Positions 118-17,016 are shown, counted from the first letter of the stretch. The stretch: DNA of 52,403 nucleotides from a virus (IMGVR_UViG_3300032782_000001:1-52403); one strand, 5' to 3'. The notes: generated from the letters alone by a model not told the origin. A program made the numbers and translations.

Positions 118-165
118 GGTCGTCGCCTCCGTCCGCCAATACGACGGACGGAGGCGAATTTCCGA
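118..165 (-). promoter_or_regulatory. conserved upstream cassette, palindromic variant
   Basis: minus-strand reading GGAAATTCGCCTCCGTCCGTCGTATTGGCGGACGGAGGCGACGACC-ATG; 13-bp inverted repeat pairs the SD with an upstream CCTCC arm. Confidence 0.5.
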
Positions 166-402
166 TCACCCGTCGTCTTGCGCGTCCGCGGTCGCCTCTT
201 CTTCCGTGTCGAAGGGACCGTTCGGCGTCCCGTCAGGCACGCACCCGGGGAAGCAGGCCCACCAGTACCAGCCTGCAGCGAGCTTCTCGCCGTCTTCGGC
301 CTCCAGCTCACCTTCCGGGGCGTAGAAGACCTCGGCGTTCGGCAGAGCCGTCTCTTCGGTCTCACGGCTCTTGTCGGTGTAAATCTGCGGCATTGTCGTC
401 AC
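166..402 (-). CDS. small acidic hypothetical protein (78 aa)
   Basis: ORF track; GGAGGTGACGACA-ATG RBS directly upstream. Confidence 0.6.
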   Translation of the reverse strand: MTTMPQIYTDKSRETEETALPNAEVFYAPEGELEAEDGEKLAAGWYWWACFPGCVPDGTPNGPFDTEEEATADAQDDG

Positions 403-443
403 CTCCGATCTAGAGTACGACCGGAGGTGACGAACTTACGGCC
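403..443 (-). promoter_or_regulatory. conserved upstream cassette, palindromic variant
   Basis: GTCGTCACCTCCG..GAGTACGAC..CGGAGGTGACGAAC inverted repeat around a CGTAC/CGTAT core; CGTAAGTTCG box on the distal side. Confidence 0.55.
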
Positions 444-704
444 TTACGGCACCTGCCAAGTCCCGTCGCCTTCGTAGTAGAAGACAGACGCGCCGCTCGG
501 CAGCTCGACGAACGGGCAGTAACCGCCGCGGTCTGACCCTTCTGGGTGTTCGTCCACGTAGCCCTTGCACCCTTCCGGCAAGGGTACGTCCTGGTCTTCG
601 ACCCAGCCCTCCCCGCGGGCCACTTCCTTCGTCAAAGTCACCACGCCCTTGTGGACAGACGGGGTGCAGCCTTCGAGGTACTTGAGAAGCTCAGTCCTGT
701 TCAC
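444..704 (-). CDS. hypothetical protein (86 aa)
   Basis: ORF track; GTG start 5 nt after GGAGGTGA. Confidence 0.6.
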   Translation of the reverse strand: MNRTELLKYLEGCTPSVHKGVVTLTKEVARGEGWVEDQDVPLPEGCKGYVDEHPEGSDRGGYCPFVELPSGASVFYYEGDGTWQVP

Positions 705-750
705 GTCGTCACCTCCGCACCTGAGTACGCGCGGAGGTGACGAACTTGCC
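705..750 (-). promoter_or_regulatory. conserved upstream cassette, palindromic variant
   Basis: CGTCGTCACCTCCGCACCTGAGTACGCGCGGAGGTGACGAACTTGCCC. Confidence 0.5.
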
Positions 751-757
751 CTTTGTT

Positions 758-1012
758 TTACTTGGACTGGACAACCGTCACTTGGAACTCCGATCCGTCC
801 GTGAGACGGAGGACGAATCCGGCGTTGTTCGTGAGGACCATGGCCTCCTCGAAGGAGCGAAGGTCTGCACCGACCAGCACAGCCCCATCGTCCAAGCCGG
901 ACTCCACCTCGGTCGAAAGACCGATGGTCTCCTGAAGCAGAGTCGCCATTTCCATCTCGTCCATCGTAGCGATGACCTCACCGATCCGGGCCGTGTGTAC
1001 GCTCTTCGCCAT
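758..1012 (-). CDS. hypothetical protein (84 aa)
   Basis: ORF track 758..1072 trimmed to Met21, which follows GGAGGTGACGACG; the longer N-terminus is a read-through of the cassette. Confidence 0.6.
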   Translation of the reverse strand: MAKSVHTARIGEVIATMDEMEMATLLQETIGLSTEVESGLDDGAVLVGADLRSFEEAMVLTNNAGFVLRLTDGSEFQVTVVQSK

Positions 1013-1450
1013 CGTCGTCACCTCCGACTCTGGATACGACGATGGCCGGCGGATTTTCGCTCCGCCGGCCATCGAGACTGCACACCCGCGCTTGCCGGTT
1101 CTCCGGCTCTCAGCAAAGTTTGGAGGCGGCCACCAGCCGCCCGCTTTGACCCTTCCTCATCGGCCTCCTCACTTTCTGCGCCAGACCTCCGGTCTGGGAG
1201 AGCGTTGACCTCACCTATCCACGCCGTGCGAGTTGTCTCTTAACTGGGGGCCGGAGAACGGCAGCTTCGATCTCCCACCGCTAGCTGACGATCTTACCCC
1301 ACCCGGCGGCCGCAAGCCGCGCGATATAACGCAATCGGACTGCCTTTCCTTCGTAGGAGGTTGGTTTCTAGGACCTGTATGCCGCCGCGCGGTGGCCGGC
1401 CACCGCGCTCTCCCCGCTTGCGATCTCCGGTACGCCGCGCGTCGCCGAAC

Positions 1451-1585
1451 TTACGACCGGAGCAACGAGCCGATCGCCTCGCGCGTCTCCAGACAGATCG
1501 CCAGCTGCGCCTCGGTGATCTTGCCCTCGTCGTACCACGCGAGGATCTTCTTCACGCTGCTGAACCGCACGCTCTTCTTCGCCAT
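1451..1585 (-). CDS. small hypothetical protein (44 aa, MAKKSVRFSSVKKILAWYDEGKITEAQLAICLE...)
   Basis: hand-translated; GGAGGTGAGACCG-ATG RBS; below the ORF-track size cut-off; coordinates approximate. Confidence 0.4.
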   Translation of the reverse strand: MAKKSVRFSSVKKILAWYDEGKITEAQLAICLETREAIGSLLRS

Positions 1586-1640
1586 CGGTCTCACCTCCAC
1601 AACCGAATACGACGCGGATCGCCAGACTTACGACCGCGCC
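1586..1640 (-). promoter_or_regulatory. conserved upstream cassette
   Basis: minus reading GTCGTAAGTCTGGCGATCCGCGTCGTATTCGGTTGTGGAGGTGAGACCG-ATG. Confidence 0.5.
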
Positions 1641-1643
1641 CAC

Positions 1644-1684
1644 AATTCCCCTTTAAAATTGAACTGGGAATTTTAAAGGGGAAT
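1644..1684. promoter_or_regulatory. 16-bp inverted repeat (AATTCCCCTTTAAAATT / AATTTTAAAGGGGAAT) between divergent cassettes; operator-like
   Basis: near-perfect palindrome with 8-nt centre, lying exactly between the minus-strand cassette (1586-1640) and the plus-strand cassette (1690-1749). Confidence 0.45.
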
Positions 1685-1689
1685 CCCTC

Positions 1690-1749
1690 GCCCAGCGGGC
1701 GCCGCAAATCCGACAGGGCCCGTCGTATCCAGGGACGGAGGTGATGACG
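1690..1749 (+). promoter_or_regulatory. conserved upstream cassette
   Basis: GCCGCAAATCCGACAGGGCCCGTCGTATCCAGGGACGGAGGTGATGACG-ATG. Confidence 0.5.
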
Positions 1750-2115
1750 ATGACGACGAACAACGCAGCGAGCTACCCGTTCCTCAGCAAGGCCCAGATC
1801 AAGGATCGCCTGGCCCAAGACCCGGACTTCGTCCGGGAGTGCGCCCTGATCATGCAGGATCGCCAGACGGCCTACGAGCAGGCCACCCTCACCACGAAGG
1901 ACCGCAACCGCAAGGGCTGGATGAGCAGCCACGCCGTCAACGGCGGCAAGCTCACCGCCAAGCTCCGCCAGGGAGAGGCCCTCGAAGCCGAGGAGTGGCT
2001 CAAGCTCCAGGAGATGGTCTCGCACTACGGCAAGCAGCTCGCGAGCCACTTCCGGGAGGCGGCCATCGAAGCCAACCCGACCCTCAAGGCCGCGGCCGCG
2101 ATCTTCGGCGTCTGA
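1750..2115 (+). CDS. hypothetical protein (about 122 aa)
   Basis: ORF track 1741..2115; start ambiguous among three in-frame ATGs within or after GGAGGTGATGACGATG, and 1750 gives canonical spacing. Confidence 0.55.
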   Translation: MTTNNAASYPFLSKAQIKDRLAQDPDFVRECALIMQDRQTAYEQATLTTKDRNRKGWMSSHAVNGGKLTAKLRQGEALEAEEWLKLQEMVSHYGKQLASHFREAAIEANPTLKAAAAIFGV

Positions 2116-2123
2116 TCCAACCA

Positions 2124-2153
2124 GGCCCCGCCCGGGTTCTTCCGGGCGGGGCC
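2124..2153 (+). terminator. GC-rich perfect 12-bp hairpin (GGCCCCGCCCGG..CCGGGCGGGGCC)
   Basis: directly after the 2115 stop; no clear U-tract. Confidence 0.45.
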
Positions 2154-2164
2154 TGCCCGTCAAA

Positions 2165-2214
2165 GCGGCCGCAAATCTGATGCGGCCGCGCGTATTGACA
2201 TTCGGAGGGTAACG
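2165..2214 (+). promoter_or_regulatory. conserved upstream cassette
   Basis: CCGCAAATCTGATGCGGCCGCGCGTATTGACATTCGGAGGGTAACG-ATG. Confidence 0.5.
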
Positions 2215-2463
2215 ATGATCGACACGAGCTGCACGCTCACCGTGGGCGACTTGCTGGAAGCATTGAAGGCCGGTCGCGTGACCCCGGACACCTGCCTGGG
2301 ATACGCCGTTCGAGGGTTCCCGTCCGATGGCGTGGAGTCCATCTCTGCCATCAGCTTCCACAAATACGAGGACGGGACCCGGGTCCTCATCTTCTTGAAC
2401 GACGTTAACTCCCCACAAGTCGCTCGCGACGTCGTACCGCTGGAAGCCGAAGATTTGACCTGA
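2215..2463 (+). CDS. hypothetical protein (82 aa)
   Basis: ORF track; cassette upstream; hairpin AAGGCCGG..CCGGCCTT downstream at 2469-2501. Confidence 0.55.
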   Translation: MIDTSCTLTVGDLLEALKAGRVTPDTCLGYAVRGFPSDGVESISAISFHKYEDGTRVLIFLNDVNSPQVARDVVPLEAEDLT

Positions 2464-2509
2464 CCCCTAAGGCCGGGCTCGCGAAAGCGGGTTCCGGCCT
2501 TCGTCGTTC

Positions 2510-2731
2510 TTACTCTGATGGGATGTTAAATCCCTTGGGGTGACCTTCAGGAATATCTGCCAAGATATCTTTTGAAAGATCCCCTTTAAAAGCCAATCCA
2601 ATACACCCCTTTGAACAATAGTCCTTACGGATCGCCTTCAAAGACGAGTCCCCCTCTACTTTAAGGACTAGCCAGTTAGAAGGGATGGACTGCCCGACAA
2701 CCGATTTTCCGCAAGTATTACAAACCCACAT
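2510..2731 (-). CDS. Cys-rich small protein (CxxC...CxxxC), AT-rich island
   Basis: ORF track 2510..2785 trimmed to Met19; the track N-terminus translates the 2739-2777 hairpin. Confidence 0.4.
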   Translation of the reverse strand: MWVCNTCGKSVVGQSIPSNWLVLKVEGDSSLKAIRKDYCSKGCIGLAFKGDLSKDILADIPEGHPKGFNIPSE

Positions 2732-2738
2732 GAAGAAC

Positions 2739-2777
2739 AATACTTGGCAGGGGATCGTCGATCCCCTGCCAAGTATT
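2739..2777. repeat. perfect 19-bp inverted repeat AATACTTGGCAGGGGATCG/CGATCCCCTGCCAAGTATT (TGGCAGGGG hairpin family)
   Basis: read directly; same stem motif as 31395-31430 and 44086-44112. Confidence 0.7.
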
Positions 2778-2816
2778 TGTTTCAACCAGGGAATTTGCCC
2801 GTGTCGGGCCGAGCTT

Positions 2817-3272
2817 TCAAGATGGGACGACGAAATTTCCGCTTGAAAGAGCTGCCTGAAGGGACTTCATCATCACTTCCGGCGGGACGACACGCACGTC
2901 TCCCTCGACATCCGCGGCCATCCCAACCAGATCTTCCCAAGTGGCCGGAGGCGTCTCACCCTCCTCCAAATCCCACCCGACTTGGTCCCAAACCCCCTCC
3001 ATGTCGTCGTAAAGACCCATGGAGCCCCTGGTCCCACCCCCATGGATTTTCTCGTCAGCCGCTTCCACCGCGGCAGCCATCTCCGGAGTCCCTCCACCCG
3101 GAACTTTGAAAGCCTGCCATCCCCACGGCCCACTAACCGCCACATACGCGTCGCTCATAGCCGCCAGTACGCGGCGCAGCGCCGCACTTACGCGGACGCG
3201 ACTCGGTTTTTGACTGCGGTCAATTTTATCCGCAATTTGGCGCAAAGAAGCAGCAACCCGAGAAGGCGTCAT
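2817..3272 (-). CDS. hypothetical protein, paralog of 14874..15284 (shared N-terminal 40 aa PSRVAASLRxIADKIDRSxxPSRVRVS)
   Basis: ORF track trimmed to Met6 by comparison with the paralog; the shared 5' region contains an in-frame copy of the cassette at about 3150-3205. Confidence 0.6.
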   Translation of the reverse strand: MTPSRVAASLRQIADKIDRSQKPSRVRVSAALRRVLAAMSDAYVAVSGPWGWQAFKVPGGGTPEMAAAVEAADEKIHGGGTRGSMGLYDDMEGVWDQVGWDLEEGETPPATWEDLVGMAADVEGDVRVVPPEVMMKSLQAALSSGNFVVPS

Positions 3273-3414
3273 GCTTCTCTCCGTCAAAGGAGTTTTAGAA
3301 TCACGTCGCCACTTGCGTCAGCGGACCAAATTTTTGCCCCGCTTGCGTACGCGCGCGCAGGTATGGCAGGTATTTCTGCGATCCCTGCCAGGGATCGAGC
3401 CGATCCTTCTAGTT

Positions 3415-3585
3415 AGGTTCGCCTTTTTGGCGTTTCTTTACTGAAGAGCCAAGTCATTCCGAGCACGGTGGTCACCAACCCCACCAAGAAGTAAGGCGGC
3501 GGGTATTCGTAGAGAAGCGCACCCAGCAAAGTAAAGCTGAGTCCGGAGATCACCAGGGCGACGGGAAAAAGGCGAGGCTTCACGA
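3415..3585 (-). CDS. possible small 2-TM membrane protein (57 aa, GTG start)
   Basis: hand-translated; no SD; sits right after a terminator-like hairpin (3598-3646) followed by TTTTT; weak. Confidence 0.2.
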
Positions 3586-3659
3586 GTAAAAACCGGACCC
3601 TGGAGCCGCATGGTCGCCGGTTGGAGGTGACGACGGTCGGCTCCAGGGTCCCAAGGTGT

Positions 3660-3845
3660 TCAGTCGATGCGCCGCGCCTCCAAGCCCTTCTTCGTCGGAC
3701 GAAGGGTTCCGTCCACCTCGACGATGAAACCCTTCTTGACGAGGGCGAATCGCCGTCGACCGTCGATGGCGTGGGCCGGACACGGCTCCTTCACGTCGTC
3801 GCAATAGACAATTGAGAGCAGGGCCATCCAGGTTTCGAAAGTCAC
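3660..3845 (-). CDS. hypothetical protein (61 aa)
   Basis: ORF track; AAGGAGGAATCGCC-GTG start overlapping the upstream stop (GTGA). Confidence 0.5.
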   Translation of the reverse strand: MTFETWMALLSIVYCDDVKEPCPAHAIDGRRRFALVKKGFIVEVDGTLRPTKKGLEARRID

Positions 3846-4201
3846 GGCGATTCCTCCTTCTTAGAACGCTCTGCGTCAAGGACCTTCTTGGCCCGGACGA
3901 ACAACTCCCGCCAGTAGACGTGGCTGAAGTAAACGGAGATAGACGAGTTCTTCCCCGGATTGAGGCCCCGGAGGCACTCGAGCAAGTCAGCATCCGAAAG
4001 CCCGTTCGCCGTGGCGAACGCTGCCTCGTACTGCGCTTGAGGAACGAGATTGAAGAGCTGCTCCACGAGCGGAACCTTCTCAGGTAGGTCCGGCGGACCG
4101 TCGCTCGGAGCCGGCGCGTTGTCCTTCACCAGCTTGGCAATGGCCTGAAGCTGGGCCTTTGCCTCCTCGAGCTTGTGCTCAACTTTCTCGTCGGATCCCA
4201 T
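3842..4201 (-). CDS. hypothetical protein (119 aa)
   Basis: ORF track; GGAGGTTTTGATTAA-ATG. Confidence 0.6.
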   Translation of the reverse strand: MGSDEKVEHKLEEAKAQLQAIAKLVKDNAPAPSDGPPDLPEKVPLVEQLFNLVPQAQYEAAFATANGLSDADLLECLRGLNPGKNSSISVYFSHVYWRELFVRAKKVLDAERSKKEESP

Positions 4202-4245
4202 TTAATCAAAACCTCCGACCGATCTTACGTTGAAAAGCAGAAGGT

Positions 4246-4473
4246 TTACGACGTTTCGTAGACCTTCAAACTCTCCCACGCCGGGATAGCAAACTGCTCG
4301 TCGTAGTCCCGCTCCGTGTCGTTCATGTCCTGCCGCCAGTCGATCTCGTGCTGATAGCAGGACTTGCAAACGATGGCATTGGAATCGCCACCCGTCGGCA
4401 GAAGCCGGACTTCACCTTCGACGCAGATCCCGAGCTGCTTGTCACAGCGAGGATTGTTGTAATGAGTCGCCAA
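4246..4473 (-). CDS. Cys-rich small protein (75 aa, TTG start)
   Basis: ORF track 4246..4650 trimmed to Leu60 (TTG), which follows GGAGGTGACGAAC; the residues upstream (PEVTNL) are the cassette read-through. Confidence 0.5.
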   Translation of the reverse strand: MATHYNNPRCDKQLGICVEGEVRLLPTGGDSNAIVCKSCYQHEIDWRQDMNDTERDYDEQFAIPAWESLKVYETS

Positions 4474-4520
4474 GTTCGTCACCTCCGGATCCAAATACGA
4501 CCGGAGGTGACGAACTTGCG
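4474..4520 (-). promoter_or_regulatory. conserved upstream cassette, palindromic variant (17-bp arms AAGTTCGTCACCTCCGG / CCGGAGGTGACGAACTT)
   Basis: read directly; central TCGTATTTGGAT. Confidence 0.55.
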
Positions 4521-4528
4521 CCGTCGCG

Positions 4529-4999
4529 TCAGTCCAGACGATCGTCCTGACCACAACGAGGGTCGCACTGGCCCGGAGGCGCCCCGCACTCCTCGCAATC
4601 GTCCGAGTGGTCTTCCGGGTCGGAATTGTCATCGCAGATGGGAGTCCCACCCAAGGCTTCGAGAACCGCCGTCACCGTCTTGCAAACGGACGTCTCGGCC
4701 GTCCGAGGAGAACAGAGGGTCTCGCAAATTTTCCAAGACCGGACGTATTGCCAACCGTCGACGTAAGGAAGGGACAATCCCTCCCAACGGTCGTGACGCC
4801 AAGGGATCTCCCCGTGGTTCTCCTTGTCGATGTGCTTCGCCAACAGGTCGCAGACGACCCGGGCAAGCTCCTCCGAAGCACACAGGACCAAATGGTCCGT
4901 GTCCGGAGCCTCCCCGTCGTAATCGCCGTAGATCGCCCAGCAAGGCACGGCCAGAATCGGCTTGGCCAACTCGTAGATCTTCTCGAGGTCCTCAGTCAC
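4529..4999 (-). CDS. hypothetical protein, Cys/Asp-rich C-terminus (156 aa)
   Basis: ORF track; GTG start after GGAGGTGACGAC; cassette at 5000-5050. Confidence 0.6.
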   Translation of the reverse strand: MTEDLEKIYELAKPILAVPCWAIYGDYDGEAPDTDHLVLCASEELARVVCDLLAKHIDKENHGEIPWRHDRWEGLSLPYVDGWQYVRSWKICETLCSPRTAETSVCKTVTAVLEALGGTPICDDNSDPEDHSDDCEECGAPPGQCDPRCGQDDRLD

Positions 5000-5062
5000 G
5001 TCGTCACCTCCGCGATCGGATACGACGCGGCCCGGCGGATTTCTGCGATCGCGCCGAGTTCT

Positions 5063-5359
5063 TCAAAAACTCCCGGCGGTTGAGCTGCGGTCGAACGACA
5101 GGATCATGTCGTTCCCGAAGAGTTTCTCGGCCACCTTCCGGTTCTCCGTCGGAGTTCCTTCTTCCAAGGGATGGACTTTGGAAGCCGGCACCCGGACGTT
5201 CTCGTACATGGAGTGCCACTTCACGACGTACGTGACCCTTCCAATCCCCGGCTTCCGATTCGGGTCGAGCTCGTTGGAGACCACCTCGCCTTCCACGAGC
5301 CGTCCCTTGAGGACGAAACCGACCTTCGAACCCTTCGGAAGAACCTTGTAACCACTCAT
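5063..5359 (-). CDS. hypothetical protein (98 aa)
   Basis: ORF track; AGGAGGTGATGGCCGG-ATG; cassette at 5360-5410. Confidence 0.6.
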   Translation of the reverse strand: MSGYKVLPKGSKVGFVLKGRLVEGEVVSNELDPNRKPGIGRVTYVVKWHSMYENVRVPASKVHPLEEGTPTENRKVAEKLFGNDMILSFDRSSTAGSF

Positions 5360-5437
5360 CCGGCCATCACCTCCTGCCCCCGATACGCCGCGGAACCGCC
5401 AGATTTGCGCCCCGGCTTCAAAGGGGACCTTTAAAGA

Positions 5438-5638
5438 CTAACTCTTCATGACTTCAAGGATGATTTTCTCTTCGCAAGGGACCCACTCCGGAACGGGTCC
5501 AGTACCTTGGACTGGCACGTGGAGATTCCAAGGAGGCTTCCTGGAAGACCAGTGGACTCCTCCGCATTTGGAACACCTCCATTTTAGAGCTCCTTCGGGT
5601 TCTTCCTGGACCCAGACGTGCCCCGAATGTCTTCCCAT
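5438..5638 (-). CDS. small Cys-rich protein, tail ...ILEVMKS (V-[MH]-x-S tail family)
   Basis: ORF track. Confidence 0.5.
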   Translation of the reverse strand: MGRHSGHVWVQEEPEGALKWRCSKCGGVHWSSRKPPWNLHVPVQGTGPVPEWVPCEEKIILEVMKS

Positions 5639-5654
5639 AAGCTAAAACGTAAAT

Positions 5655-5692
5655 TCGAACCGGTCAGACGTATCCGGAATCAACAAACATAA
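5655..5692 (+). promoter_or_regulatory. orphan plus-orientation copy of the cassette boxes (CGTAAATTCG..GACGTATCCGG) without SD
   Basis: read directly; followed by G-rich degenerate repeats (GGAAGTTCCGG-like) antisense to the minus ORF 5716..6276. Confidence 0.35.
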
Positions 5693-11514: not shown

Positions 11515-11590
11515 ACTAGTCCCGGAAACCAGCCAATACGACGACCGGCGAATTTGCGCTATTGCCAAGTATGGCTGAGGACAGTTTACA

Positions 11591-11667
11591 GGTGGACCGG
11601 AAGGGATTCGAACCCTCAGTTAGGAAGTTTTTAAAACCTCTGTGTCTGCCTTTTCCACCACCGGTCC
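11591..11667 (-). tRNA. tRNA-like gene, anticodon UAA (Leu-type anticodon but short variable arm)
   Basis: 7/7-bp acceptor GGACCGG/CCGGTCC, T-arm GAGGG-TTCGAAT-CCCTT, anticodon arm GAGGT-TTTAAAA-ACTTC, 3-bp D-stem, 77 nt ending ACC; coordinates approximate. Confidence 0.55.
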
Positions 11668-11687
11668 GGATTGGTTCCTTCTTCGGT

Positions 11688-11855
11688 TCAGTTTTCTTTG
11701 AGCCAATTACGATGACTGGCTGCTCGGAGTTTTTCCAGTTTTCGCAGTTCTTTTAATTCTCGTAGCCATTTTGCTAGTTGCTTATGATCTCTTCCGCAAG
11801 GAGTGTCCTCGGAGGATTTTTCTTCCGCATGTTTAATAGCTTCTTCGAGTCTCAT
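11688..11855 (-). CDS. small AT-rich basic protein (55 aa) upstream of the tRNA
   Basis: hand-translated; no SD; coordinates approximate. Confidence 0.3.
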   Translation of the reverse strand: MRLEEAIKHAEEKSSEDTPCGRDHKQLAKWLRELKELRKLEKLRAASHRNWLKEN

Positions 11856-11867
11856 CCAGTGTATCCT

Positions 11868-12098
11868 TTACGCTTCCGGCAGCTTCACATGGATCCAGCC
11901 GAGAGACTTCGAGTTGTTGAGGCTCGGCTTCCTCTCACCTTCTCGAGCTGGCTGAGTATCCCCGGCCTTACGTTCCAGAACATCGAAGTTCGTGGCAGCC
12001 GTGTTCTTCTGACGAATCTCGTTGAAGGCCATCTGAGCGGCCTCTTCCGGCGAATTGGCCTCGAAGTCCATGTCCCAGCGCACGCGGTAATTCTTCAT
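11868..12098 (-). CDS. hypothetical protein (77 aa)
   Basis: ORF track trimmed to Met34 after AAGGAGAAGCG; ATGA overlap with upstream gene. Confidence 0.55.
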   Translation of the reverse strand: MKNYRVRWDMDFEANSPEEAAQMAFNEIRQKNTAATNFDVLERKAGDTQPAREGERKPSLNNSKSLGWIHVKLPEA

Positions 12099-12469
12099 CG
12101 CTTCTCCTTCGGAGCCTTCTTTGCTGGACGAACACTCGCCTTGTTGAACCTTCCTGAGACGAGGCTGATGACGCCAAGGAGCGTGGCCTCCCCACAAAGG
12201 ATGGAGCCTTCCGCAGCGTCGTAGAGGTAAATGCCCTCGAAAGGGTGACTCACCAACCCGAGGTAATCCTCTTCGTATTCCTGGACGACCTTCCGGTCCT
12301 TCCAGAACTGTTGGGCGCGTTTGGTGGCGAGTTGGATGTCGGAGTATGCTCCGAGGATGACATCCGTTGTCTCGTCATCTTGGACGATGACGTCCGGATC
12401 TCCTTCACCGTCTTGGTCCGTCACCACGTCGTAGTTGTTCCAAACGGTTCCCAGGATCACAACTGCCAT
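12095..12469 (-). CDS. acidic hypothetical protein (124 aa)
   Basis: ORF track trimmed to Met4 after GGAGGTGACGACG; cassette at 12470-12525. Confidence 0.6.
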   Translation of the reverse strand: MAVVILGTVWNNYDVVTDQDGEGDPDVIVQDDETTDVILGAYSDIQLATKRAQQFWKDRKVVQEYEEDYLGLVSHPFEGIYLYDAAEGSILCGEATLLGVISLVSGRFNKASVRPAKKAPKEKR

Positions 12470-12520
12470 CGTCGTCACCTCCAGATCAGGATACGACGTG
12501 ATCCGCCGAATTTGCGCTGG

Positions 12521-12709
12521 TCAGGCCGACATCACTTCGTACACGAGCCACGAGTTTCTCTCTTCGGGGGACATGGACTGAATAACTTCATCCAAGTTTG
12601 CCTGAAGCCTTTGCCGAAAGACTTCACGTTTCTCTTCGGACCTGGTGTCGTTCGTCAGCACATCTTGCAGTTGAGCGCTGATCCAGAACGCATCTTGAAC
12701 TTTGCTCAT
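12521..12709 (-). CDS. small protein, tail ...SWLVYEVMSA (tail family)
   Basis: ORF track; ATGA overlap. Confidence 0.5.
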   Translation of the reverse strand: MSKVQDAFWISAQLQDVLTNDTRSEEKREVFRQRLQANLDEVIQSMSPEERNSWLVYEVMSA

Positions 12710-13029
12710 GATGCATGGACCGCCAAGATGGTCATCTGACGCTTCACACGTTCTTTGATTTCCTCGAGGGGTCCGAAGAAGATGCGAAACCCGACGCCAT
12801 CCTTCGTGTACCAGATCTCACGACCATTGGCCTCTTGGGCGATGTTCATCCCGATCTGGATGTACTCGTGGGGCTCCAAATCCTGCCCCACATAATCGAA
12901 ATCCGTGAGTCCACCCTCGGTGAAATCCCCATTATCCAACGGGAAGATCTCGGCGTCGTTCTCTCGAGCGACAATGAACTCGGCGACAAGCGCCTGGAGT
13001 TCCTCATCCTCCTTGAATTTCAGCTCCAT
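12706..13029 (-). CDS. hypothetical protein (107 aa)
   Basis: ORF track 12706..13182 trimmed to Met52 after GGAGGATGGCTC. Confidence 0.55.
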   Translation of the reverse strand: MELKFKEDEELQALVAEFIVARENDAEIFPLDNGDFTEGGLTDFDYVGQDLEPHEYIQIGMNIAQEANGREIWYTKDGVGFRIFFGPLEEIKERVKRQMTILAVHAS

Positions 13030-13229
13030 GAGCCATCCTCCAGCTTCTTCAGCTCCACGAGCGCCTTGGCATATGCCTCTTCGATCATCGACCGACGAGC
13101 CAATGCGAGGTGAGCTTTTTCGTGGTCGACGACTGCCTTCCGCTCGGACGCCGTGAGCTTCCGGATCATGCCGGGGTCCCAACAGACAGAACAGGTTCCA
13201 GCCTTGTAAACCATCTTAGGTTCGGCCAT
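13020..13229 (-). CDS. hypothetical protein (69 aa, CxxC)
   Basis: ORF track trimmed to Met4 after GGAGGTGACGATA; cassette at 13230-13280. Confidence 0.55.
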   Translation of the reverse strand: MAEPKMVYKAGTCSVCWDPGMIRKLTASERKAVVDHEKAHLALARRSMIEEAYAKALVELKKLEDGSWS

Positions 13230-13277
13230 TATCGTCACCTCCAGATCTGAGTACGTCGGCGACCGGCGAATTTACGA

Positions 13278-13841
13278 TCACGCCTCCATCACGTCGAACA
13301 CATAACATAACTGAAGGGCTTTTTCCTTGGAAATTTCCTCGAATTTCTTGACCTCTTTGGCAAGTATGCAGACTTCACAAAGTCCAAATGGAGGTTCTCC
13401 CTGGAAGAACTTCTTAGCCGGCTTCCGCTCGGCGGTTTTCCCGAGGTCTCTACCTTTGGAATCGTATTTTGAATGCATGTTCCTGCAAAACATCAGCATC
13501 CCGGAAGGAGGAAGTGGAGTTGATGATAAGAAGGCTTCTTGTTCGGGTAGTCCTGTGAGGTCGGATTTATTTATCGCTCCCGCTCCAAGCGCTCTTACCT
13601 GGTCGAGGACGTGCATGACCGATTGGTACTTGGTGAGACGCAGATCCTGAATGATTTCTGTACTGAGACCACTTTTGAGTAGCCTTTGAACCGAGCCCAC
13701 AGGCACGTGTTCCATCATGGAGCACACTTGCACATAACGCTCCGTGGCGTACCGCTTGTAGCCCTTTTCGTAAAGCCCTTTCGCCTCCAGCATGGCTTGA
13801 CGAATTTTGTCCATCAAAGCATTCAACGATATGTCGTCCAT
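13278..13841 (-). CDS. hypothetical protein (187 aa), tail ...LCYVFDVMEA (tail family)
   Basis: ORF track; stop lies inside the downstream gene's cassette. Confidence 0.6.
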   Translation of the reverse strand: MDDISLNALMDKIRQAMLEAKGLYEKGYKRYATERYVQVCSMMEHVPVGSVQRLLKSGLSTEIIQDLRLTKYQSVMHVLDQVRALGAGAINKSDLTGLPEQEAFLSSTPLPPSGMLMFCRNMHSKYDSKGRDLGKTAERKPAKKFFQGEPPFGLCEVCILAKEVKKFEEISKEKALQLCYVFDVMEA

Positions 13842-13849
13842 GATTCGAC

Positions 13850-14170
13850 CTAGCTATACATGACCGTCCAGACAGTCCACTCTTCGTCCGAAAGCTTGCG
13901 GATTTTCCCATGGAAGATGGTGTCTTCTCCCATAAAGCCCTTGTTCATGCACGACTTGCAGACGAGGAACATGGTGGCCCGGATCTTATCCAGCTTATCC
14001 AGACTCCCTACATTGGAATGCTGTTGAAGGTATTCTTCGGCGAAGACGAAAGCTGCAATGGGCTTCCCTGACTGAGTCCCCATGTGATTGGAACATGATG
14101 GGTCGCAGCAACGACCAGCTGTACCCCTCTTGGCCCTGGCCAGAAGCACCATCAGCTCTCGGTCGTTCAT
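13850..14170 (-). CDS. Cys-rich protein (106 aa), tail ...EEWTVWTVMYS (tail family)
   Basis: ORF track trimmed to Met10 after GGGAG. Confidence 0.5.
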   Translation of the reverse strand: MNDRELMVLLARAKRGTAGRCCDPSCSNHMGTQSGKPIAAFVFAEEYLQQHSNVGSLDKLDKIRATMFLVCKSCMNKGFMGEDTIFHGKIRKLSDEEWTVWTVMYS

Positions 14171-14172
14171 AT

Positions 14173-14325
14173 CTACTCCCAGTTCTCGACTTTCCAAGCG
14201 GACTGGCGCTCCTTGGCGCGTCGATCCGCTCGATGACGCATCTTCGCAGCCTTGCAGTTAAGAATGGCCGTAAGGCATTCGATGGAACGGGGCTTTTTAG
14301 GCTGCCGAGCCTTGCGAATCTTCAT
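14173..14325 (-). CDS. small very basic protein (50 aa, MKIRKARQPKKPRSIECL...)
   Basis: hand-translated; GGAGGTGACGACG-ATG; cassette at 14326-14380; not in ORF track (under 60 aa). Confidence 0.4.
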   Translation of the reverse strand: MKIRKARQPKKPRSIECLTAILNCKAAKMRHRADRRAKERQSAWKVENWE

Positions 14326-14372
14326 CGTCGTCACCTCCAGGCGAAAATACGCCGGGGGCTGACGGACTTCCG

Positions 14373-14787
14373 CTATGCGACTTGCACCTGCTGGACAATC
14401 CTCTTAGCGAGGTATACGTTGCATTCCGCGATGAAGGCATCGTTGATGGCGTAATATCGATTGTCGAGATCATCGGTATCCTCACCAGACACCGCGTCCG
14501 GGTCGAATTTCATCGCCAGTTGGACGAGCCGCAGAACTTTCGCGGACAGGTCCGTGTTCATCTGATTCAGGGCGAACTTCAGGAACGGAAACCCGACGTC
14601 GTAGCGGTTGCCGAGCCACTGGGAGAAGCCCCCCGTTTTGAACCTGATGGTTCAATTGCCCGAGAACGGCGGCGTCCCTTTGCAGAGGCTCGAGACTCAT
14701 GAGGAAGGTCTCCGTCGACCAATCACTGTGGTCTCGCCACAGGTCGTATGCCTCGTTCATGAGCCTCTGGTGCACGGAATCCGGCAT
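14373..14787 (-). pseudogene. single gene split into two ORFs by a +1 frameshift at a C6/G6 homopolymer (14637-14642)
   Basis: ORFs 14482..14787 and 14373..14561 read sensibly only when joined (...LNHQVQNGG / TGGFSQWLGNRYDVGFPFLKFALNQMNTDL...); run of six G on the coding strand at the junction. Confidence 0.5.
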
Positions 14788-14873
14788 ATGTCGCCTCCGG
14801 CACCGAATACGACGCGGCCCGGCGGACTTACGACCGGCCGGGCCCTAGACTTTCAAGCGTAATTGCTTTAACG

Positions 14874-15284
14874 TCAGCTTACGCCGAGGAAATCGGCGAC
14901 GGCATCCATTACGATCTGCTGGATCCCTTCGGGATCTTGCGTAATATCGAAACCCGGTTTCCCCTCAATGCTCCCGTTCTTCCAATCCCAACCGCCGACG
15001 TTGCCCGCATCGTCCAGCATCAAAATCATGACGCCAGCAACAGGGTTCCCATCGACCAGTCCTTGAAACTTGGCTGCAGGTTCATTTGGTTTCTTTGTAA
15101 CTTCCGTCATCTCTAGACGGTATCCGCCAGGCTGCATCGGATCGCCGGATTCCGCCTCGCCTTCGTTCATACTCGCGAGTACGACGCGGATCGCCGAACT
15201 TACGCGGACGCGACTCGGATTGGAAGATCGGTCAATTTTATCGGCGATCTCTCGCAAGGAGGCGGCAACCCGAGAAGGTATCAT
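14874..15284 (-). CDS. hypothetical protein, paralog of 2817..3272 (shared N-terminal 40 aa)
   Basis: ORF track; about 130-nt identity block with 3145-3290 including an in-frame cassette copy at 15165-15225. Confidence 0.6.
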   Translation of the reverse strand: MIPSRVAASLREIADKIDRSSNPSRVRVSSAIRVVLASMNEGEAESGDPMQPGGYRLEMTEVTKKPNEPAAKFQGLVDGNPVAGVMILMLDDAGNVGGWDWKNGSIEGKPGFDITQDPEGIQQIVMDAVADFLGVS

Positions 15285-15311
15285 GCCTCAATCCCTCAAA
15301 AGAGGGCTAGT

Positions 15312-15509
15312 TCAGTGAGGCCAGAGCGGAACCGAGAAGTATGCTTCAGGCGGAATACCAGGAACCGTTGCGGGGATGGGATCCACAATCGTGTTCGTGG
15401 GCTTCGGCACGTATTTGACGGGGTTATTGGTGGGTACGTATGAAGCCGGGTCAACCTTCGTCGACTGGGCCGTGAGCTGTCCGAGATCGGTGTATGCGAC
15501 GGTTGCCAT
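15312..15509 (-). CDS. Pro/Thr/Val-rich small protein (65 aa)
   Basis: ORF track; weak RBS. Confidence 0.35.
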   Translation of the reverse strand: MATVAYTDLGQLTAQSTKVDPASYVPTNNPVKYVPKPTNTIVDPIPATVPGIPPEAYFSVPLWPH

Positions 15510-15524
15510 ACAACCTTATCGCAA

Positions 15525-15749
15525 TTAAAGACCTTGCGATGCAACGAAAGACTCTTGGACGTCTTCCTTCCGAAGGACCATTCCACCCCCGTTCCAGCCG
15601 AGACTGTATGGGTGGTCTTCATGCCACTTCGTCCATCTTCCTTCACCTCCGTGAGGTGGGTGCTCTGTGATGGATAGTTTGAGAGTTAGTGGCAGTTCCA
15701 ACTCGGGAGAAAGCTTGGAAAGCACTTCCATGAGTTCACATACTTTCAT
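15525..15749 (-). CDS. hypothetical protein (75 aa)
   Basis: ORF track 15525..15803 trimmed to Met19; the longer N-terminus translates the 15769-15790 hairpin arm. Confidence 0.5.
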   Translation of the reverse strand: MKVCELMEVLSKLSPELELPLTLKLSITEHPPHGGEGRWTKWHEDHPYSLGWNGGGMVLRKEDVQESFVASQGL

Positions 15750-15768
15750 GGGTTCTCCACAGAATAAG

Positions 15769-15843
15769 AAGGCGCCTCGAGAAAGGGACCGTTCCTGAAC
15801 CATTTCTCAGATCCAGCTCCGGGTCCCTTTCTCGAGGCGCCTT
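15769..15843. repeat. 22-bp perfect inverted repeat (AAGGCGCCTCGAGAAAGGGACC / GGTCCCTTTCTCGAGGCGCCTT) with 31-nt spacer
   Basis: read directly; intergenic between two minus-strand genes. Confidence 0.7.
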
Positions 15844-15849
15844 CCTCCG

Positions 15850-16017
15850 TCAGTCCTTGTAACCGGTCGATACCTTCGGAATCGTTTCATCTCCGATGCG
15901 GAGCAGCTTCTTCGAGATGCGGCGGAACTCCTTGTGAGCCCGGCGCTTGTGCTCCCCCTTGGTTGCAGAGGATGCACGCTTGCACTGACGACAATTGCAC
16001 GAGTAGTAGACCTTCAT
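15850..16017 (-). CDS. basic zinc-ribbon protein (55 aa; MKVYYSCNCRQCKRASSATKGEHKRRAHKEF...)
   Basis: hand-translated in a frame different from track ORF 15887..16081; GAAGGAGGTTCTCG-ATG; coordinates approximate. Confidence 0.5.
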   Translation of the reverse strand: MKVYYSCNCRQCKRASSATKGEHKRRAHKEFRRISKKLLRIGDETIPKVSTGYKD

Positions 16018-16148
16018 CGAGAACCTCCTTCAATTCATCGCCAGCCTCCTTTCCGTGAGCTAGTTTAGCACTGTGTTTCACAGGTCAGCTCACTTCCACC
16101 TGTTTAGATCATTGTACTAGGCGTGGGCACTGATCTATTACCTGGGAA

Positions 16149-16358
16149 TCATCGTTTGGTCGTTCCAGTCGAGGACTCTAGATGAGCCCTAATAGCCGCA
16201 GCCCAATCCCGGAGTGCTGACGTATGAACGACTGAGAGATGCCCGGTGGCCGTATAAATGAGGTGGTTCTGTCCTTGTGGTAGAACCCAGCCGCCGCCAT
16301 CTCCGGTTTTGGCAGCTTCTTCGATACACTCGAGAACCTCATCTAACGGTCGGGTCAT
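16149..16358 (-). CDS. hypothetical protein (69 aa)
   Basis: ORF track; start 3 nt after upstream stop. Confidence 0.5.
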   Translation of the reverse strand: MTRPLDEVLECIEEAAKTGDGGGWVLPQGQNHLIYTATGHLSVVHTSALRDWAAAIRAHLESSTGTTKR

Positions 16359-16359
16359 T

Positions 16360-16611
16360 TCAATCGTCCCAACCTTCCGGCATCTTCTCTGAGACGTCCA
16401 GTCCTGCTTTCTCGAGGCTATCCTCGATGGACTGGTAGATTTCGTTGGCCGTCAACAAGGCCTTCCCCTCTCGAATCGAGAGAACGACATCTTCGAGGAG
16501 CGCGCGGACCTCCGCTTCGGAGAGATCCGCGATCGTCTTCTGGGCGACCGACTGCTTCTGAGCGGCTTTCTTCTGAGCGGCTTTCTTCTGAGCGGCTTTC
16601 TTGGTTGCCAT
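16360..16611 (-). CDS. small protein with N-terminal KKAAQ x3 basic repeats (possible DNA-binding)
   Basis: ORF track trimmed to Met9 after GAGGAGAGAACA; 15-nt tandem repeat x3 at 16553-16600. Confidence 0.55.
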   Translation of the reverse strand: MATKKAAQKKAAQKKAAQKQSVAQKTIADLSEAEVRALLEDVVLSIREGKALLTANEIYQSIEDSLEKAGLDVSEKMPEGWDD

Positions 16612-16621
16612 TGTTCTCTCC

Positions 16622-16957
16622 TCAGTCGAACACACCGCGCTGGCAAGCCTCCTCGAGGCTGTAATCTTCCTCGTCTTCCTCGTCTTCCTCGTCCTCGTCG
16701 CTCTCGTAGGCGACTTGCGGAAAGTACACGATGACGTCGCGACCCATCGAATCGCTGTGGGCTCCTTGCAATTCCTCCGCGATCGTCTGCATGTCGCACG
16801 AGACGTCGGCGGCAGCCTGGAAAAGTGCCCCGTAGATCTCGGTGATGCTGGACCCCTCGATGCCGAGGCAATCCTTACCGAACATGAACCGGCCGGAATA
16901 CGACCGGACGTGGAGCTCCGCGGCCTCGGCCAAATCTTGCAATGCGCTCTTCGTCAT
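16622..16957 (-). CDS. hypothetical protein with polyacidic C-terminus (ESDEDEEDEEDEED)
   Basis: ORF track 16622..17236 trimmed to Met94 after GGAGGTGACGAA; TCTTCCTCG x3 tandem repeat on plus strand; palindromic cassette at 16958-17010. Confidence 0.55.
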   Translation of the reverse strand: MTKSALQDLAEAAELHVRSYSGRFMFGKDCLGIEGSSITEIYGALFQAAADVSCDMQTIAEELQGAHSDSMGRDVIVYFPQVAYESDEDEEDEEDEEDYSLEEACQRGVFD

Positions 16958-17016
16958 TTCGTCACCTCCACGGTTCGATACGCGCGGAGGTGACGAATTT
17001 GCGCCGGCCGATCGAC

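What the first reader, a model, noticed from the sequence alone, without database searches (positions are those of the whole stretch)
118..17010. Palindromic cassette variants in which an anti-SD arm (TTCGTCACCTCCG) can pair with the downstream SD (CGGAGGTGACGAA)
At about 118-165, 403-443, 705-750, 4474-4520 and 16958-17010 the spacer between the two boxes is replaced by the reverse complement of the SD region. This gives 13-17-bp perfect inverted repeats centred on the CGTAT box. If transcribed from upstream (read-through from the preceding gene), the RNA would sequester the SD in a stem. A transcript starting inside the palindrome would have a free SD.

This looks like a built-in switch between coupled (read-through) and promoter-driven expression. 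Alternatively the palindrome is a dimeric-protein operator overlapping the promoter.
Basis: partly seen in the sequence, partly recalled or inferred. Interest (0 to 1): 0.6.

Follow-up and report, generated by a model that had tools for sequence, protein, structure and literature searches.

The report
Promoter cassettes that hairpin their ribosome site
In an uncultivated huge phage, five copies of a repeated promoter-plus-ribosome-site cassette carry a spacer complementary to their own ribosome-binding site; RNA entering from upstream would fold it shut while RNA started inside stays open, a design known from phage T4.

Summary
About 36 genes in the window are preceded by a cassette of fixed geometry: CG-N-AAATTC, N12, CGTAT, N8, GGAGGTGACGA, then the start codon. 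In five minus-strand copies (gene starts 117, 393, 704, 4473, 16957) the N12 spacer is the reverse complement of the SD segment. This gives 12-18 bp perfect stems of about -30 to -36 kcal/mol. Chance expects 0.008 such copies.

The two boxes also occur without an SD, including leaderless-like copies, and a pyrimidine always precedes GGAGG. I therefore read them as a phage-specific promoter that starts at the first G of GGAGG. That start site is inferred, not mapped. The anti-SD arm would then lie upstream of the start. Opening the SD costs 16-25 kcal/mol in read-through RNA, against 3-8 in RNA from the cassette's own promoter.

Relatives, which are 270-440 kb metagenomic phages, show the same variant. 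Their arms covary and the register shifts, which argues against a protein operator. The hairpin is kept in orthologues at 78-80% identity and lost at 58% or below.

The architecture matches T4 genes e, soc and I-TevI, set inside PeSL-like promoter/stem-loop cassettes. Function is untested. A terminator or attenuator role is the main rival.

The parts
115..161 (-). Palindromic cassette A. Box1 AAATTC 161-156; anti-SD arm 157-145 (TCGCCTCCGTCCG); box2 CGTAT 143-139; SD arm 135-123 (CGGACGGAGGCGA; GGAGG 130-126); ATG 117-115. The gene runs off the window end.
   Evidence: whole-region fold -42.3 kcal/mol, z = -4.4. The arms differ from the other copies but are perfectly complementary.
391..437 (-). 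Palindromic cassette B. Box1 AAGTTC 437-432; anti-SD arm 433-422; box2 CGTAC 419-415; SD arm 407-396 (GGAGG 406-402); ATG 393-391. Gene 393-166 (75 aa).
   Evidence: z = -5.9; hairpin -29.5 kcal/mol. The counterpart L027:476 keeps the stem with a G.U to C-G change.
702..747 (-). Palindromic cassette C. Box1 AAGTTC 747-742; anti-SD arm 743-731; box2 CGTAC 729-725; SD arm 718-706 (GGAGG 716-712); GTG start 704-702. Gene 704-444 (86 aa).
   Evidence: z = -5.1; hairpin -31.6 kcal/mol. The orthologous cassette L027:163 pairs in a shifted register, CCTCCGCGCC / GGCGCGGAGG, at -29.1 kcal/mol.
4471..4518 (-). Palindromic cassette D, an 18-bp perfect palindrome: CAAGTTCGTCACCTCCGG (4518-4501) / CCGGAGGTGACGAACTTG (4488-4471). 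Box1 lies inside the left arm, box2 CGTAT is at 4499-4495, and the TTG start 4473-4471 lies inside the right arm. Gene 4473-4246 (75 aa).
   Evidence: z = -5.9; hairpin -35.9 kcal/mol. Kept in L025 (80% aa identity) with one inner mismatch.
16955..17000 (-). Palindromic cassette E. Box1 AAATTC 17000-16995; anti-SD arm 16997-16983; box2 CGTAT 16982-16978; SD arm 16972-16958 (GGAGG 16969-16965); ATG 16957-16955. Gene 16957-16622 (111 aa).
   Evidence: z = -4.3; 15 bp with one sense-strand G.U. Orthologues L022, L023 and L024 are not palindromic.
20852..20890 (-). One ordinary (non-palindromic) copy of the same cassette, given as reference: AAATTC-N12-CGTAT-N8-GGAGGTGACGA. About 30 more copies lie on both strands across the window; searches list them all.
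   Evidence: 36 box1-N12-box2 matches against 0.2 expected; logo.
15168..15201 (-). Box1-N12-box2 module followed by N8 and then directly ATG, with no SD. This is a leaderless-like copy. It places the inferred start site 8-9 nt after box2.
   Evidence: Similar cases: 9962-9984(-) with CGTAT-N11-ATG before a metallophosphoesterase, and L029 with CGTAC-N7-ATG.
21170..21205 (-). Partial anti-SD cassette. Spacer GCACATCCGCG pairs with CGCGGAGGTGC (10 of 11 positions). The copy-specific GTGC after GGAG is matched by GCAC in the spacer.
   Evidence: opening the SD costs 13.1 kcal/mol in read-through RNA. Other intermediates lie at box2 positions 24148(+), 14351(-) and 44993(+).

Best explanation
The window comes from a 436-kb metagenomic contig that looks like a huge phage. 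It uses a repeated intergenic cassette:
- a phage-specific promoter made of box1 (CG-N-AAATTC), 12 nt, and box2 (CGTAT);
- 8 nt, then a very strong ribosome-binding segment (GGAGGTGACGA);
- the start codon.

Transcription most likely starts at the first G of GGAGG. This is inferred.

The 12-nt promoter spacer is free to vary. In five cassettes it has become the reverse complement of the SD segment. RNA that enters such a cassette from the upstream gene contains both arms. It folds into a 12-18 bp hairpin that buries the SD, and once also the start codon, so it cannot be translated. The hairpin may also attenuate transcription. RNA started at the cassette's own promoter lacks the 5' arm and has an open SD.

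The net effect is insulation: the downstream gene is expressed only when its own promoter fires.

**Shown:** the cassette, the palindromes, their stability, their recurrence and covariation in relatives, and the computed difference in accessibility.
**Inferred:** promoter identity, start site, the existence of read-through RNA, and the effect on translation.
For: 1. **Non-random palindromes.** 5 of 35 cassettes against 0.008 expected. Fold z-scores are -4.3 to -5.9.
2. **The two boxes form a separable module.**
   - 36 matches against 0.2 expected.
   - They occur with SD distances of N8, N9, N10 and N17.
   - They occur with no SD, directly before ATG (15179; 9962; L029).
   - They precede the first genes of divergent units, at box2 positions 1611(-)/1724(+) and 21734(+).
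   - Sigma70-type promoters are depleted in 1-18000, 1 against 6.2 expected.
3. **Start-site context.** Position +12, just before GGAGG, is a pyrimidine in 54 of 54 copies although the search did not require it. This fits the usual Y(-1)/R(+1) start context (own knowledge).
4. **SD accessibility.** Opening the SD costs 15.6-24.6 kcal/mol in read-through RNA of the five copies. The median for other cassettes is 4.6. It costs 3.1-7.8 if the RNA starts 1 nt before GGAGG.
5. **Pairing, not sequence, is maintained.**
   - Copy A has different arms.
   - L045:936 pairs GATCGCACCTCCGCTC with GAGCGGAGGTGCGATC.
   - The orthologous cassette L027:163 pairs in a shifted register.
   - L027:476 shows a G.U to C-G change.
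   - The inner variable pairs covary, score 0.150 against 0.093, reached by 2 of 500 shuffles.
6. **Wobble pairs.** Among the roughly 17 strong stems, 5 internal G.U and 0 A.C are seen on the sense strand.
7. **Recurrence.** The same variant occurs in independent relatives: L012, L014, L025, L027, L045, L051, L076.
8. **Precedent.** The same architecture is experimentally established in T4 genes e, soc, 49, I-TevI/II/III, segB and in Aeh1 mobE (PMC3014915, PMC2988022).
Against: - There are no transcript data. The promoter and the start site are inferred from sequence alone.
- The anti-SD state is lost in orthologues at 58% identity or below: L022, L023, L024, L029, L030, L026, L031. It is therefore not a long-lived requirement of these genes.
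- In L027 the palindromic cassette follows the g704 orthologue, as in the window, but precedes an unrelated gene. The hairpin may therefore belong functionally to the upstream gene.
- Neighbouring copies share long identical stretches. The arms may spread by gene conversion rather than arise under independent selection.
- The G.U bias rests on 5 pairs. Hairpins of the other class (spacer paired upstream) show no bias, 4 G.U against 5 A.C.
- The covariation sample was chosen for pairing.
Confidence: 0.5

Rival explanations
1. **Terminator, attenuator or 3'-end hairpin serving the upstream gene, as in T4-type PeSL cassettes.** The stem-loop stops or stabilises RNA coming from upstream. The free spacer must supply one arm. 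The only downstream partner available is the invariant SD, so covering the SD is incidental. RNase III cutting of the long perfect stem would be a variant of this idea.
For: [quoted passage not shown] One of them terminates as well as rrnB T1 (PMC2839356).
- About as many cassettes pair the spacer with upstream sequence, leaving box1 in the loop: 1038, 14811, 17494, 33991, L015:986, L023, L030:962.
- Overall the spacers form more structure than shuffled spacers, mean z = -1.47.
- The palindromic cassette stays with the upstream gene when the downstream gene differs.
Against: - No U-tract follows any of the five stems, and canonical terminators are not enriched.
- The stems cover all of GGAGG every time, and in copy D the start codon too.
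- A spacer paired upstream would do the same job without touching the SD.
- The two roles are not exclusive.
Confidence: 0.25
2. **By-product with no function.** Quasi-palindrome correction (template switching) or gene conversion between cassettes copies the complement of the invariant SD into the unconstrained spacer. The copies then persist for a while and decay.
For: - The state turns over between orthologues.
- Palindromic copies cluster: three in a row in the window and three in a row in L045. They share long identical stretches, and L045:1172 and L045:936 are identical over about 40 nt.
- Graded intermediates exist at box2 positions 21187, 14351, 24148 and 44993.
Against: - A -30 kcal/mol block on the SD is unlikely to be neutral if read-through RNA matters.
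- The orthologous pair W729 / L027:163 keeps strong pairing through several substitutions and a register shift.
- The variant recurs with different arms in at least four genomes.
Confidence: 0.13
3. **DNA-level element.** The palindrome is an operator for a dimeric DNA-binding protein overlapping the promoter, or a cruciform that modulates promoter opening.
For: - The inverted repeat spans the promoter from the -35-like box to the start site.
- GACGA beyond the 16S-complementary GGAGGTGA is conserved in all cassettes and is not explained by anti-SD pairing (own knowledge of the 16S 3' end).
- HTH proteins are encoded nearby, for example 28436-29365.
Against: - The symmetry centre, and with it the spacing between the CCTCC and GGAGG cores, varies: registers 6, 7, 8 and 9.
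- Arm sequences differ between copies but stay complementary.
- Contiguous perfect arms of 12-18 bp are atypical for operators.
- The internal non-Watson-Crick pairs in strong stems are G.T on the sense strand only.
- Only 5 of 35 promoters would be regulated.
Confidence: 0.07

Closest known systems
T4-type 'promoter inside the hairpin' translational control: T4 genes e, soc, 49, I-TevI/II/III, segB; Aeh1 mobE
   Same: A stable hairpin sequesters the SD and/or start codon in long transcripts from upstream. A promoter placed in the DNA that encodes the 5' arm gives transcripts without that arm, and these are translated (PMC3014915, PMC2988022). Here the anti-SD arm lies between the two promoter-like boxes and the inferred start is at the first base of the SD arm.
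   Different: - The phage lineage and the promoter type are unrelated: not TATAAATA and not sigma70-like.
- The hairpin is a variant of a repeated, fixed-geometry cassette, and its 3' arm is the invariant cassette SD. One anti-SD spacer therefore fits any downstream gene.
- The arms are longer and perfect.
- There is no experimental support here.
- The genes concerned are ORFans, not lysis or homing-endonuclease genes.
PeSL (promoter-early stem-loop) cassettes of T4-like phages RB49/phi1, PST, nt-1
   Same: - Both are intergenic composite motifs of promoter, variably placed stem-loop, SD and start codon.
- Both flank small ORFan genes.
- In PeSLs the stem-loops often lie between or over the promoter boxes.
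- Homology between relatives breaks at the cassettes (PMC2839356, PMC4122927). Compare: homology with L027 runs from box1 of one cassette to the ATG of the next.
   Different: - PeSLs carry sigma70-like early promoters with AT-rich upstream regions. The cassettes here have unrelated boxes with 12-nt spacing and an invariant 8-nt distance to the SD.
- PeSL stem-loops are interpreted as terminators, not SD-sequestering stems.
- Mini-circle formation was not examined here.
Start-associated sequences (SAS/ESAS) of Cluster K mycobacteriophages
   Same: Both are conserved repeats that embed the SD a few bases before start codons of a subset of non-structural genes and extend beyond what 16S pairing explains. 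About half of the SAS have an upstream pair of inverted repeats (PMC3203893).
   Different: - The SAS is GGGATAGGAGCCC, which is an unrelated sequence.
- ESAS inverted repeats are imperfect 17-mers lying upstream of the SAS with their own consensus. They do not pair with the SD.
- ESAS presence is conserved per gene family, whereas the anti-SD state here turns over.

Membership tests
T4-type RBS-sequestering hairpin with internal promoter (functional class) | A stable RNA hairpin that includes the SD and/or the start codon | tested here: met
   12-18 bp stems cover all of GGAGG, and in copy D also the TTG start. Hairpins are -29.5 to -35.9 kcal/mol; z = -4.3 to -5.9.
T4-type RBS-sequestering hairpin with internal promoter (functional class) | A promoter placed so that its transcripts lack the 5' arm | tested here: inconclusive
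   Intact two-box modules overlap the 5' arm in all five copies. The start is inferred at the first G of GGAGG from leaderless-like copies and an invariant pyrimidine at +12. No start has been mapped.
T4-type RBS-sequestering hairpin with internal promoter (functional class) | Read-through transcripts from upstream exist and are poorly translated | not testable with these tools
   Only computed: opening the SD costs 16-25 kcal/mol against 3-8 kcal/mol. Each copy has a co-directional upstream gene ending 8-19 nt before the arm.
PeSL cassettes (T4-like phages) | Intergenic composite of promoter, stem-loop, SD and start codon, flanking ORFans | tested here: met
   Cassette catalogue. Hairpins use the spacer in about a third of copies. 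Only 2 of 78 further proteins match any Pfam family (3 families, two of them BRCT).
PeSL cassettes (T4-like phages) | Sigma70-like early promoter with an AT-rich upstream region; T4-like genome | tested here: not met
   The boxes AAATTC-N12-CGTAT do not fit TTGACA-N17-TATAAT. The sigma70 scan finds 1 site in 18 kb. There is no nucleotide match to any deposited phage; the two proteins tried gave at best about 24% identity or no match.
PeSL cassettes (T4-like phages) | Mosaic or recombination boundaries coincide with the cassettes | tested here: met
   One case: homology between the window and L027 starts at box1 and ends at the next ATG, and the flanking genes are unrelated.
Cluster K SAS/ESAS | 13-bp SAS GGGATAGGAGCCC 3-8 bp before the start; ESAS is a pair of imperfect 17-bp inverted repeats upstream of the SAS | tested here: not met
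   The conserved segment here is GGAGGTGACGA, and the inverted repeat includes the SD itself. Definition from PMC3203893.
Canonical intrinsic terminator | GC-rich hairpin followed directly by a U-tract | tested here: not met
   The stems are followed by ACGAC/ACGAA and the start codon. None of the five is called by the terminator scan, which is not enriched overall (19 against 19.8).
Dimeric-protein operator | Two half-sites of fixed sequence at fixed spacing | tested here: not met
   The register of the palindrome is 6, 7, 8 or 9, and arm sequences differ between copies while staying complementary.
Known RNA families (Rfam) | Match at gathering score | tested here: not met
   Only tRNA-Leu at 11593-11667 is found.

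The most novel reading that the evidence does not exclude
A lineage of huge phages (270-440 kb) may run much of its accessory genome from one standard, recombination-prone promoter/SD cassette. In that reading the promoter spacer acts as a programmable slot:
- left random, it does nothing;
- paired upstream, it terminates;
- written as a universal anti-SD, it makes the next gene strictly dependent on its own promoter, whatever that gene is. The SD arm is identical in all cassettes, so the insulator survives cassette-mediated gene swapping.

This would be a portable, gene-independent translational insulator rather than a gene-specific leader structure.
Probability: 0.3. Interest if true: 0.6.

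Novelty: new variant of a known kind. Interest (0 to 1): 0.45.

Why it matters
If confirmed, this would show that the T4 trick of hiding a ribosome-binding site from read-through RNA, with the promoter placed inside the hairpin, arose independently in an unrelated, uncultivated huge-phage lineage. There it is built into a modular cassette.

It would also give a sequence rule for reading gene-expression units in huge-phage 'dark matter'. About 36 promoter-like sites lie in 52 kb of ORFans, with a predicted start site.

A compact 50-nt part that combines promoter, SD and an optional insulator could be useful in synthetic biology.

The cassettes also mark the boundaries where genes are exchanged between these phages.

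Tried and rejected
- **Mirror-image SD plus TTG on the plus strand driving ORFs 746-1243, 4516-5235 and 16999-17649.** Rejected. Codon-usage scores are -0.20, -0.60 and +0.04 per codon, against +0.28 to +0.49 for the minus-strand genes. These sites have no CGTAT box in that orientation, and homologues exist for the minus-strand proteins.
- **Translational coupling by a terminating ribosome melting the stem.** Judged unlikely. Upstream stop codons end 8-19 nt before the arm, so at most the first 1-2 bp would be reached. This is an inference from the known ribosome footprint.
- **Cassette as a structured RNA with box1 always in a hairpin loop.** Rejected. Only a subset form that hairpin, and the number of spacer bases paired upstream equals the shuffled expectation, 4.07 against 3.94.
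- **N4-type hairpin promoter.** Rejected. Only 5 of 35 cassettes are palindromic, and the stems and loops are far larger.
- **Integron attC or MITE.** Considered and dropped. The geometry and the included SD do not fit.
- **Searches that found nothing useful:**
  - megablast against deposited phages;
  - exact cassette patterns in IMG/VR;
  - GTDB genomes, which gave only single chance hits;
  - relatives of the AAA ATPase in IMG/VR;
  - literature search for the motif, which returned primers only;
  - a look-up meant to extend the contig beyond the left end of the window.
- **G.U versus A.C test on upstream-pairing hairpins.** This gave no signal.

Full report
**1. What is in the sequence**

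The left 21 kb of the window is a dense array of small minus-strand genes. Further arrays lie on both strands to the right. A simple SD-plus-start scan showed that many genes are preceded by the same intergenic cassette. Read on the coding strand it is:

C-G-N-AAATTC (box1; variants AAGTTC, AAATCC, AAGTCC) – 12 nt – CGTAT (box2; sometimes CGTAC) – 8 nt – GGAGGTGACGA – 1-3 nt – start codon.

- The two-box pattern alone occurs 36 times, against 0.2 expected.
- A stricter 39-nt pattern occurs 10 times, against 0 expected.
- In 54 aligned copies from the window and its relatives, positions the search did not fix are also conserved. These are CG before box1, a pyrimidine at +5, a pyrimidine at +12 in 54 of 54 copies, and TGACGA after GGAGG.
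- GGAGGTGA matches the 16S 3' end. The following CGA does not (own knowledge of the 16S tail GAUCACCUCC).

**2. The observation**

Five cassettes, all on the minus strand, have a spacer that is the reverse complement of their own SD segment. Their genes start at 117, 393, 704, 4473 and 16957.

- Perfect arms are 13, 12, 13, 18 and 12 bp. In RNA, with one G.U each, the second and fifth reach 15 bp. Loops are 9-14 nt and contain box2.
- The 18-bp copy takes in all of box1 on one side and the TTG start codon on the other.
- The copy at 123-157 has different arms, TCGCCTCCGTCCG / CGGACGGAGGCGA. They match its own variant SD (GGAGGCGA) and its own 8-nt segment.
- Folding the 76-81 nt around each copy gives z = -4.3 to -5.9, and no shuffle does as well. 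The isolated hairpins of three copies are -29.5 to -35.9 kcal/mol.
- Shuffling the 12-nt spacers gives 0.008 cassettes with a perfect run of at least 10 bp over the SD. Five are observed.

The strand is minus. Box2 is in the loop but not at the centre.

**3. What the cassette is**

Several facts make box1-N12-box2 a module separate from the SD and most simply a promoter.

- It occurs at other distances from the SD: N9, N10 and N17.
- It occurs with no SD at all. At 15179-15201(-) it is followed by 8 nt and then ATG. At 9962-9984(-) 11 nt separate it from the ATG of a metallophosphoesterase with the canonical N-terminus MKLIHVSDTHG. In relative L029, CGTAC-N7-ATG precedes an orthologue of the gene at 704.
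- It occurs before no ORF at all, at 1430(-) and 5651(+).
- It precedes the first genes of divergent units, at box2 positions 1611(-)/1724(+) and 21734(+). An RNA-processing signal would have nothing to process there.
- Sigma70-type promoters are depleted in 1-18000, 1 against 6.2 expected. Canonical terminators are not enriched.

The leaderless-like copies and the invariant pyrimidine at +12 followed by G at +13 point to a start at the first G of GGAGG. This is an inference, and no start is mapped. I cannot say which polymerase or sigma reads the boxes. The 12-nt spacing fits neither sigma70 nor typical ECF geometry, and the window encodes no polymerase or sigma.

**4. Where it comes from**

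- A window protein is recorded on a 436,316-bp contig.
- There is no nucleotide match to deposited phages. One protein has only very distant tblastn matches and another has none.
- The cassette finds nothing real in GTDB genomes.
- It does find metagenome contigs L006-L016 with several cassettes each, at GC contents of 44-68%.
- It also finds IMG/VR viral contigs of 393 kb (L045, L051) and 274 kb (L076). A 377-kb contig (L038) has a single cassette-like hit. These three contigs share homologous proteins with the window.
- The cassette therefore belongs to a lineage of uncultivated huge phages. 'Phage' rests on the IMG/VR classification and on PHROG hits.

**5. The palindromes are one end of a range**

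Folding all cassettes shows that spacers form more structure than shuffled spacers, mean z = -1.47, with 19 of 59 below -2. There are two mutually exclusive ways.

- **Paired upstream.** The spacer pairs with the end of the previous gene region, leaving box1 in the loop. Examples are 1038 (14 bp), 14811, 17494, 33991, L015:986, L023 and L030:962.
- **Paired downstream.** The spacer pairs with the 8-nt segment and the SD, leaving box2 in the loop.

The spacer is the only free segment, so a hairpin that uses it must enclose one box or the other. Between plain cassettes and the five palindromes lie intermediates at box2 positions 21187, 24148, 14351 and 44993. Their spacers match copy-specific bases next to the SD.

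**6. Pairing, not sequence, is what is kept**

- Other genomes carry anti-SD cassettes with other arms: L045:936, GATCGCACCTCCGCTC / GAGCGGAGGTGCGATC, 16 bp, where that genome's box1 variant AGATCG is matched by CGATC after the SD; L045:1172; L045:701; L051; L076:9346; L014:306; L014:592; L012.
- The symmetry centre differs between copies, with register values 6, 7, 8 and 9.
- In ten copies sharing one register, the two innermost variable pairs take the forms CG, GC, GU and UA. Nine cells change on both sides, a value reached by 8 of 500 shuffles. The covariation score is 0.150 against 0.093, reached by 2 of 500 shuffles, and slid controls are lower. These copies were chosen for pairing, so this is supporting rather than independent evidence.
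- Internal non-Watson-Crick pairs in the roughly 17 strong stems are 5 G.U and 0 A.C on the sense strand. This mildly favours an RNA structure on the coding strand. The upstream-pairing hairpins show no such bias.

**7. Orthologue test**

| Gene (start) | Relative | Protein identity | State of the cassette |
|---|---|---|---|
| 4473 | L025 | 80% | Palindrome kept, one inner mismatch |
| 4473 | L031, L026 | 54%, 52% | No cassette |
| 704 | L027 | 78% | SD still sequestered, shifted register CCTCCGCGCC / GGCGCGGAGG, -29.1 against -31.6 kcal/mol |
| 704 | L029 | 58% | Leaderless-like |
| 704 | L030 | 48% | Plain cassette |
| 16957 | L022, L023, L024 | 59%, 58%, 39% | None is anti-SD |

In L027 four outer pairs are lost, five inner pairs are gained and the 8-nt segment has changed.

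The cassette after the 704 orthologue in L027 is again palindromic, with a G.U to C-G double change. The gene behind it, however, is unrelated to the window's gene. Nucleotide homology between the window and L027 begins at box1 of one cassette and ends at the ATG of the next.

The hairpin therefore persists over moderate divergence with compensating changes, turns over at larger distances, and can stay with the upstream gene when the downstream gene is replaced.

**8. Mechanism**

With the inferred start, the anti-SD arm is promoter spacer and is not transcribed from the cassette's own promoter.

- Opening GGAGGTGA costs 15.6-24.6 kcal/mol in RNA that includes 80 nt upstream. The median for other cassettes is 4.6.
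- It costs 3.1-7.8 kcal/mol in RNA starting 1 nt before GGAGG.
- Upstream stop codons end 8-19 nt before the arm. A terminating ribosome would hardly open the stem (inference).

This architecture is established experimentally for T4 genes e, soc, 49 and I-TevI, and for related genes. There, long early transcripts hide the ribosome-binding site, and a late promoter in the DNA that encodes the 5' arm gives translatable RNA (PMC3014915, PMC2988022).

The cassette as a whole resembles T4-type PeSLs. These are promoter plus variably placed stem-loop plus SD, flank ORFans, and act as recombination points. Their stem-loops were shown to terminate transcription (PMC2839356, PMC4122927).

I therefore give the SD-sequestering insulator reading 0.5 and the terminator/attenuator reading 0.25. 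The two may act together. A non-functional by-product of conversion or template switching gets 0.13, and a DNA operator or cruciform 0.07.

**9. Novelty and score**

The mechanism is a known kind. The lineage, the promoter-like boxes and the embedding of a universal anti-SD in the spacer of a repeated cassette are new variations. A motif search of the held papers found only unrelated primer matches. Without transcript data the functional claim stays an inference. Interest is 0.45.

Noticed in passing
window 2739-2777, 31396-31430, 44081-44117: Three long near-perfect palindromes share the core TGGCAGGGG...CCCCTGCCA, with 17-19 nt arms 1 nt apart. The second and third lie in gaps between my called genes (31387/31445 and 44084/44129) with no cassette. 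They may be bidirectional terminators or a true dimeric-protein site.
   Followed up: no
window 8796-8920: Nested perfect inverted repeats: 43-nt arms 8796-8838 / 8852-8894, and 33-nt arms 8836-8868 / 8888-8920. They form an unusually large structured non-coding region.
   Followed up: no
window 753-391 (minus strand) versus L027 138-504: Nucleotide homology with a relative starts at box1 of one cassette and ends exactly at the ATG of the next cassette. The genes on both sides are unrelated. The cassettes therefore mark mosaic or recombination boundaries, as PeSLs do.
   Followed up: partly
window 1430-1452 (-) and 5651-5673 (+): Promoter-like box1-N12-box2 modules with no SD or ORF behind them. 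The first is followed by a perfect hairpin, GCGCGGTGGCCGGCCACCGCGC, and could give a small RNA. The second is followed by more than 90 nt with no SD or start codon close behind.
   Followed up: no
window 15168-15201 (-), 9948-9984 (-); L029 about 300-347: Leaderless-like cassettes in which box2 is followed by 7-11 nt and then ATG with no SD. This suggests that the same promoter type also makes leaderless mRNAs.
   Followed up: partly
window 11591-11667 (-) and about 11535-11556 (-): A tRNA-Leu(TAA) gene lies inside the small-gene array. Just downstream is a box1/box2 copy with a 9-nt instead of a 12-nt spacer and no SD.
   Followed up: no
window 1-18000: Sigma70-consensus promoters are depleted, 1 found against 6.2 expected. 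Canonical hairpin-plus-T-tract terminators are at the chance level, 19 against 19.8.
   Followed up: no
L045 positions about 1198, 962, 727 (minus strand): A 393-kb IMG/VR relative has three consecutive anti-SD cassettes, as the window does at 729/419/143. Two of them are identical over about 40 nt, which suggests spread between neighbouring cassettes by conversion or duplication.
   Followed up: partly
L018 (137-kb contig) and L026 (32-kb contig): More distant relatives encode homologues of window proteins, but no cassette was found in 20 kb of either. The cassette is confined to a sub-lineage.
   Followed up: no
window 25892-27001 and 29900-31387: A MoxR-like AAA ATPase and a DUF2201 metallopeptidase/VWA protein lie close together. 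Both have homologues on relative L009, at 73% and 67% identity, and the ATPase has distant matches in N4-like and other phages.
   Followed up: no
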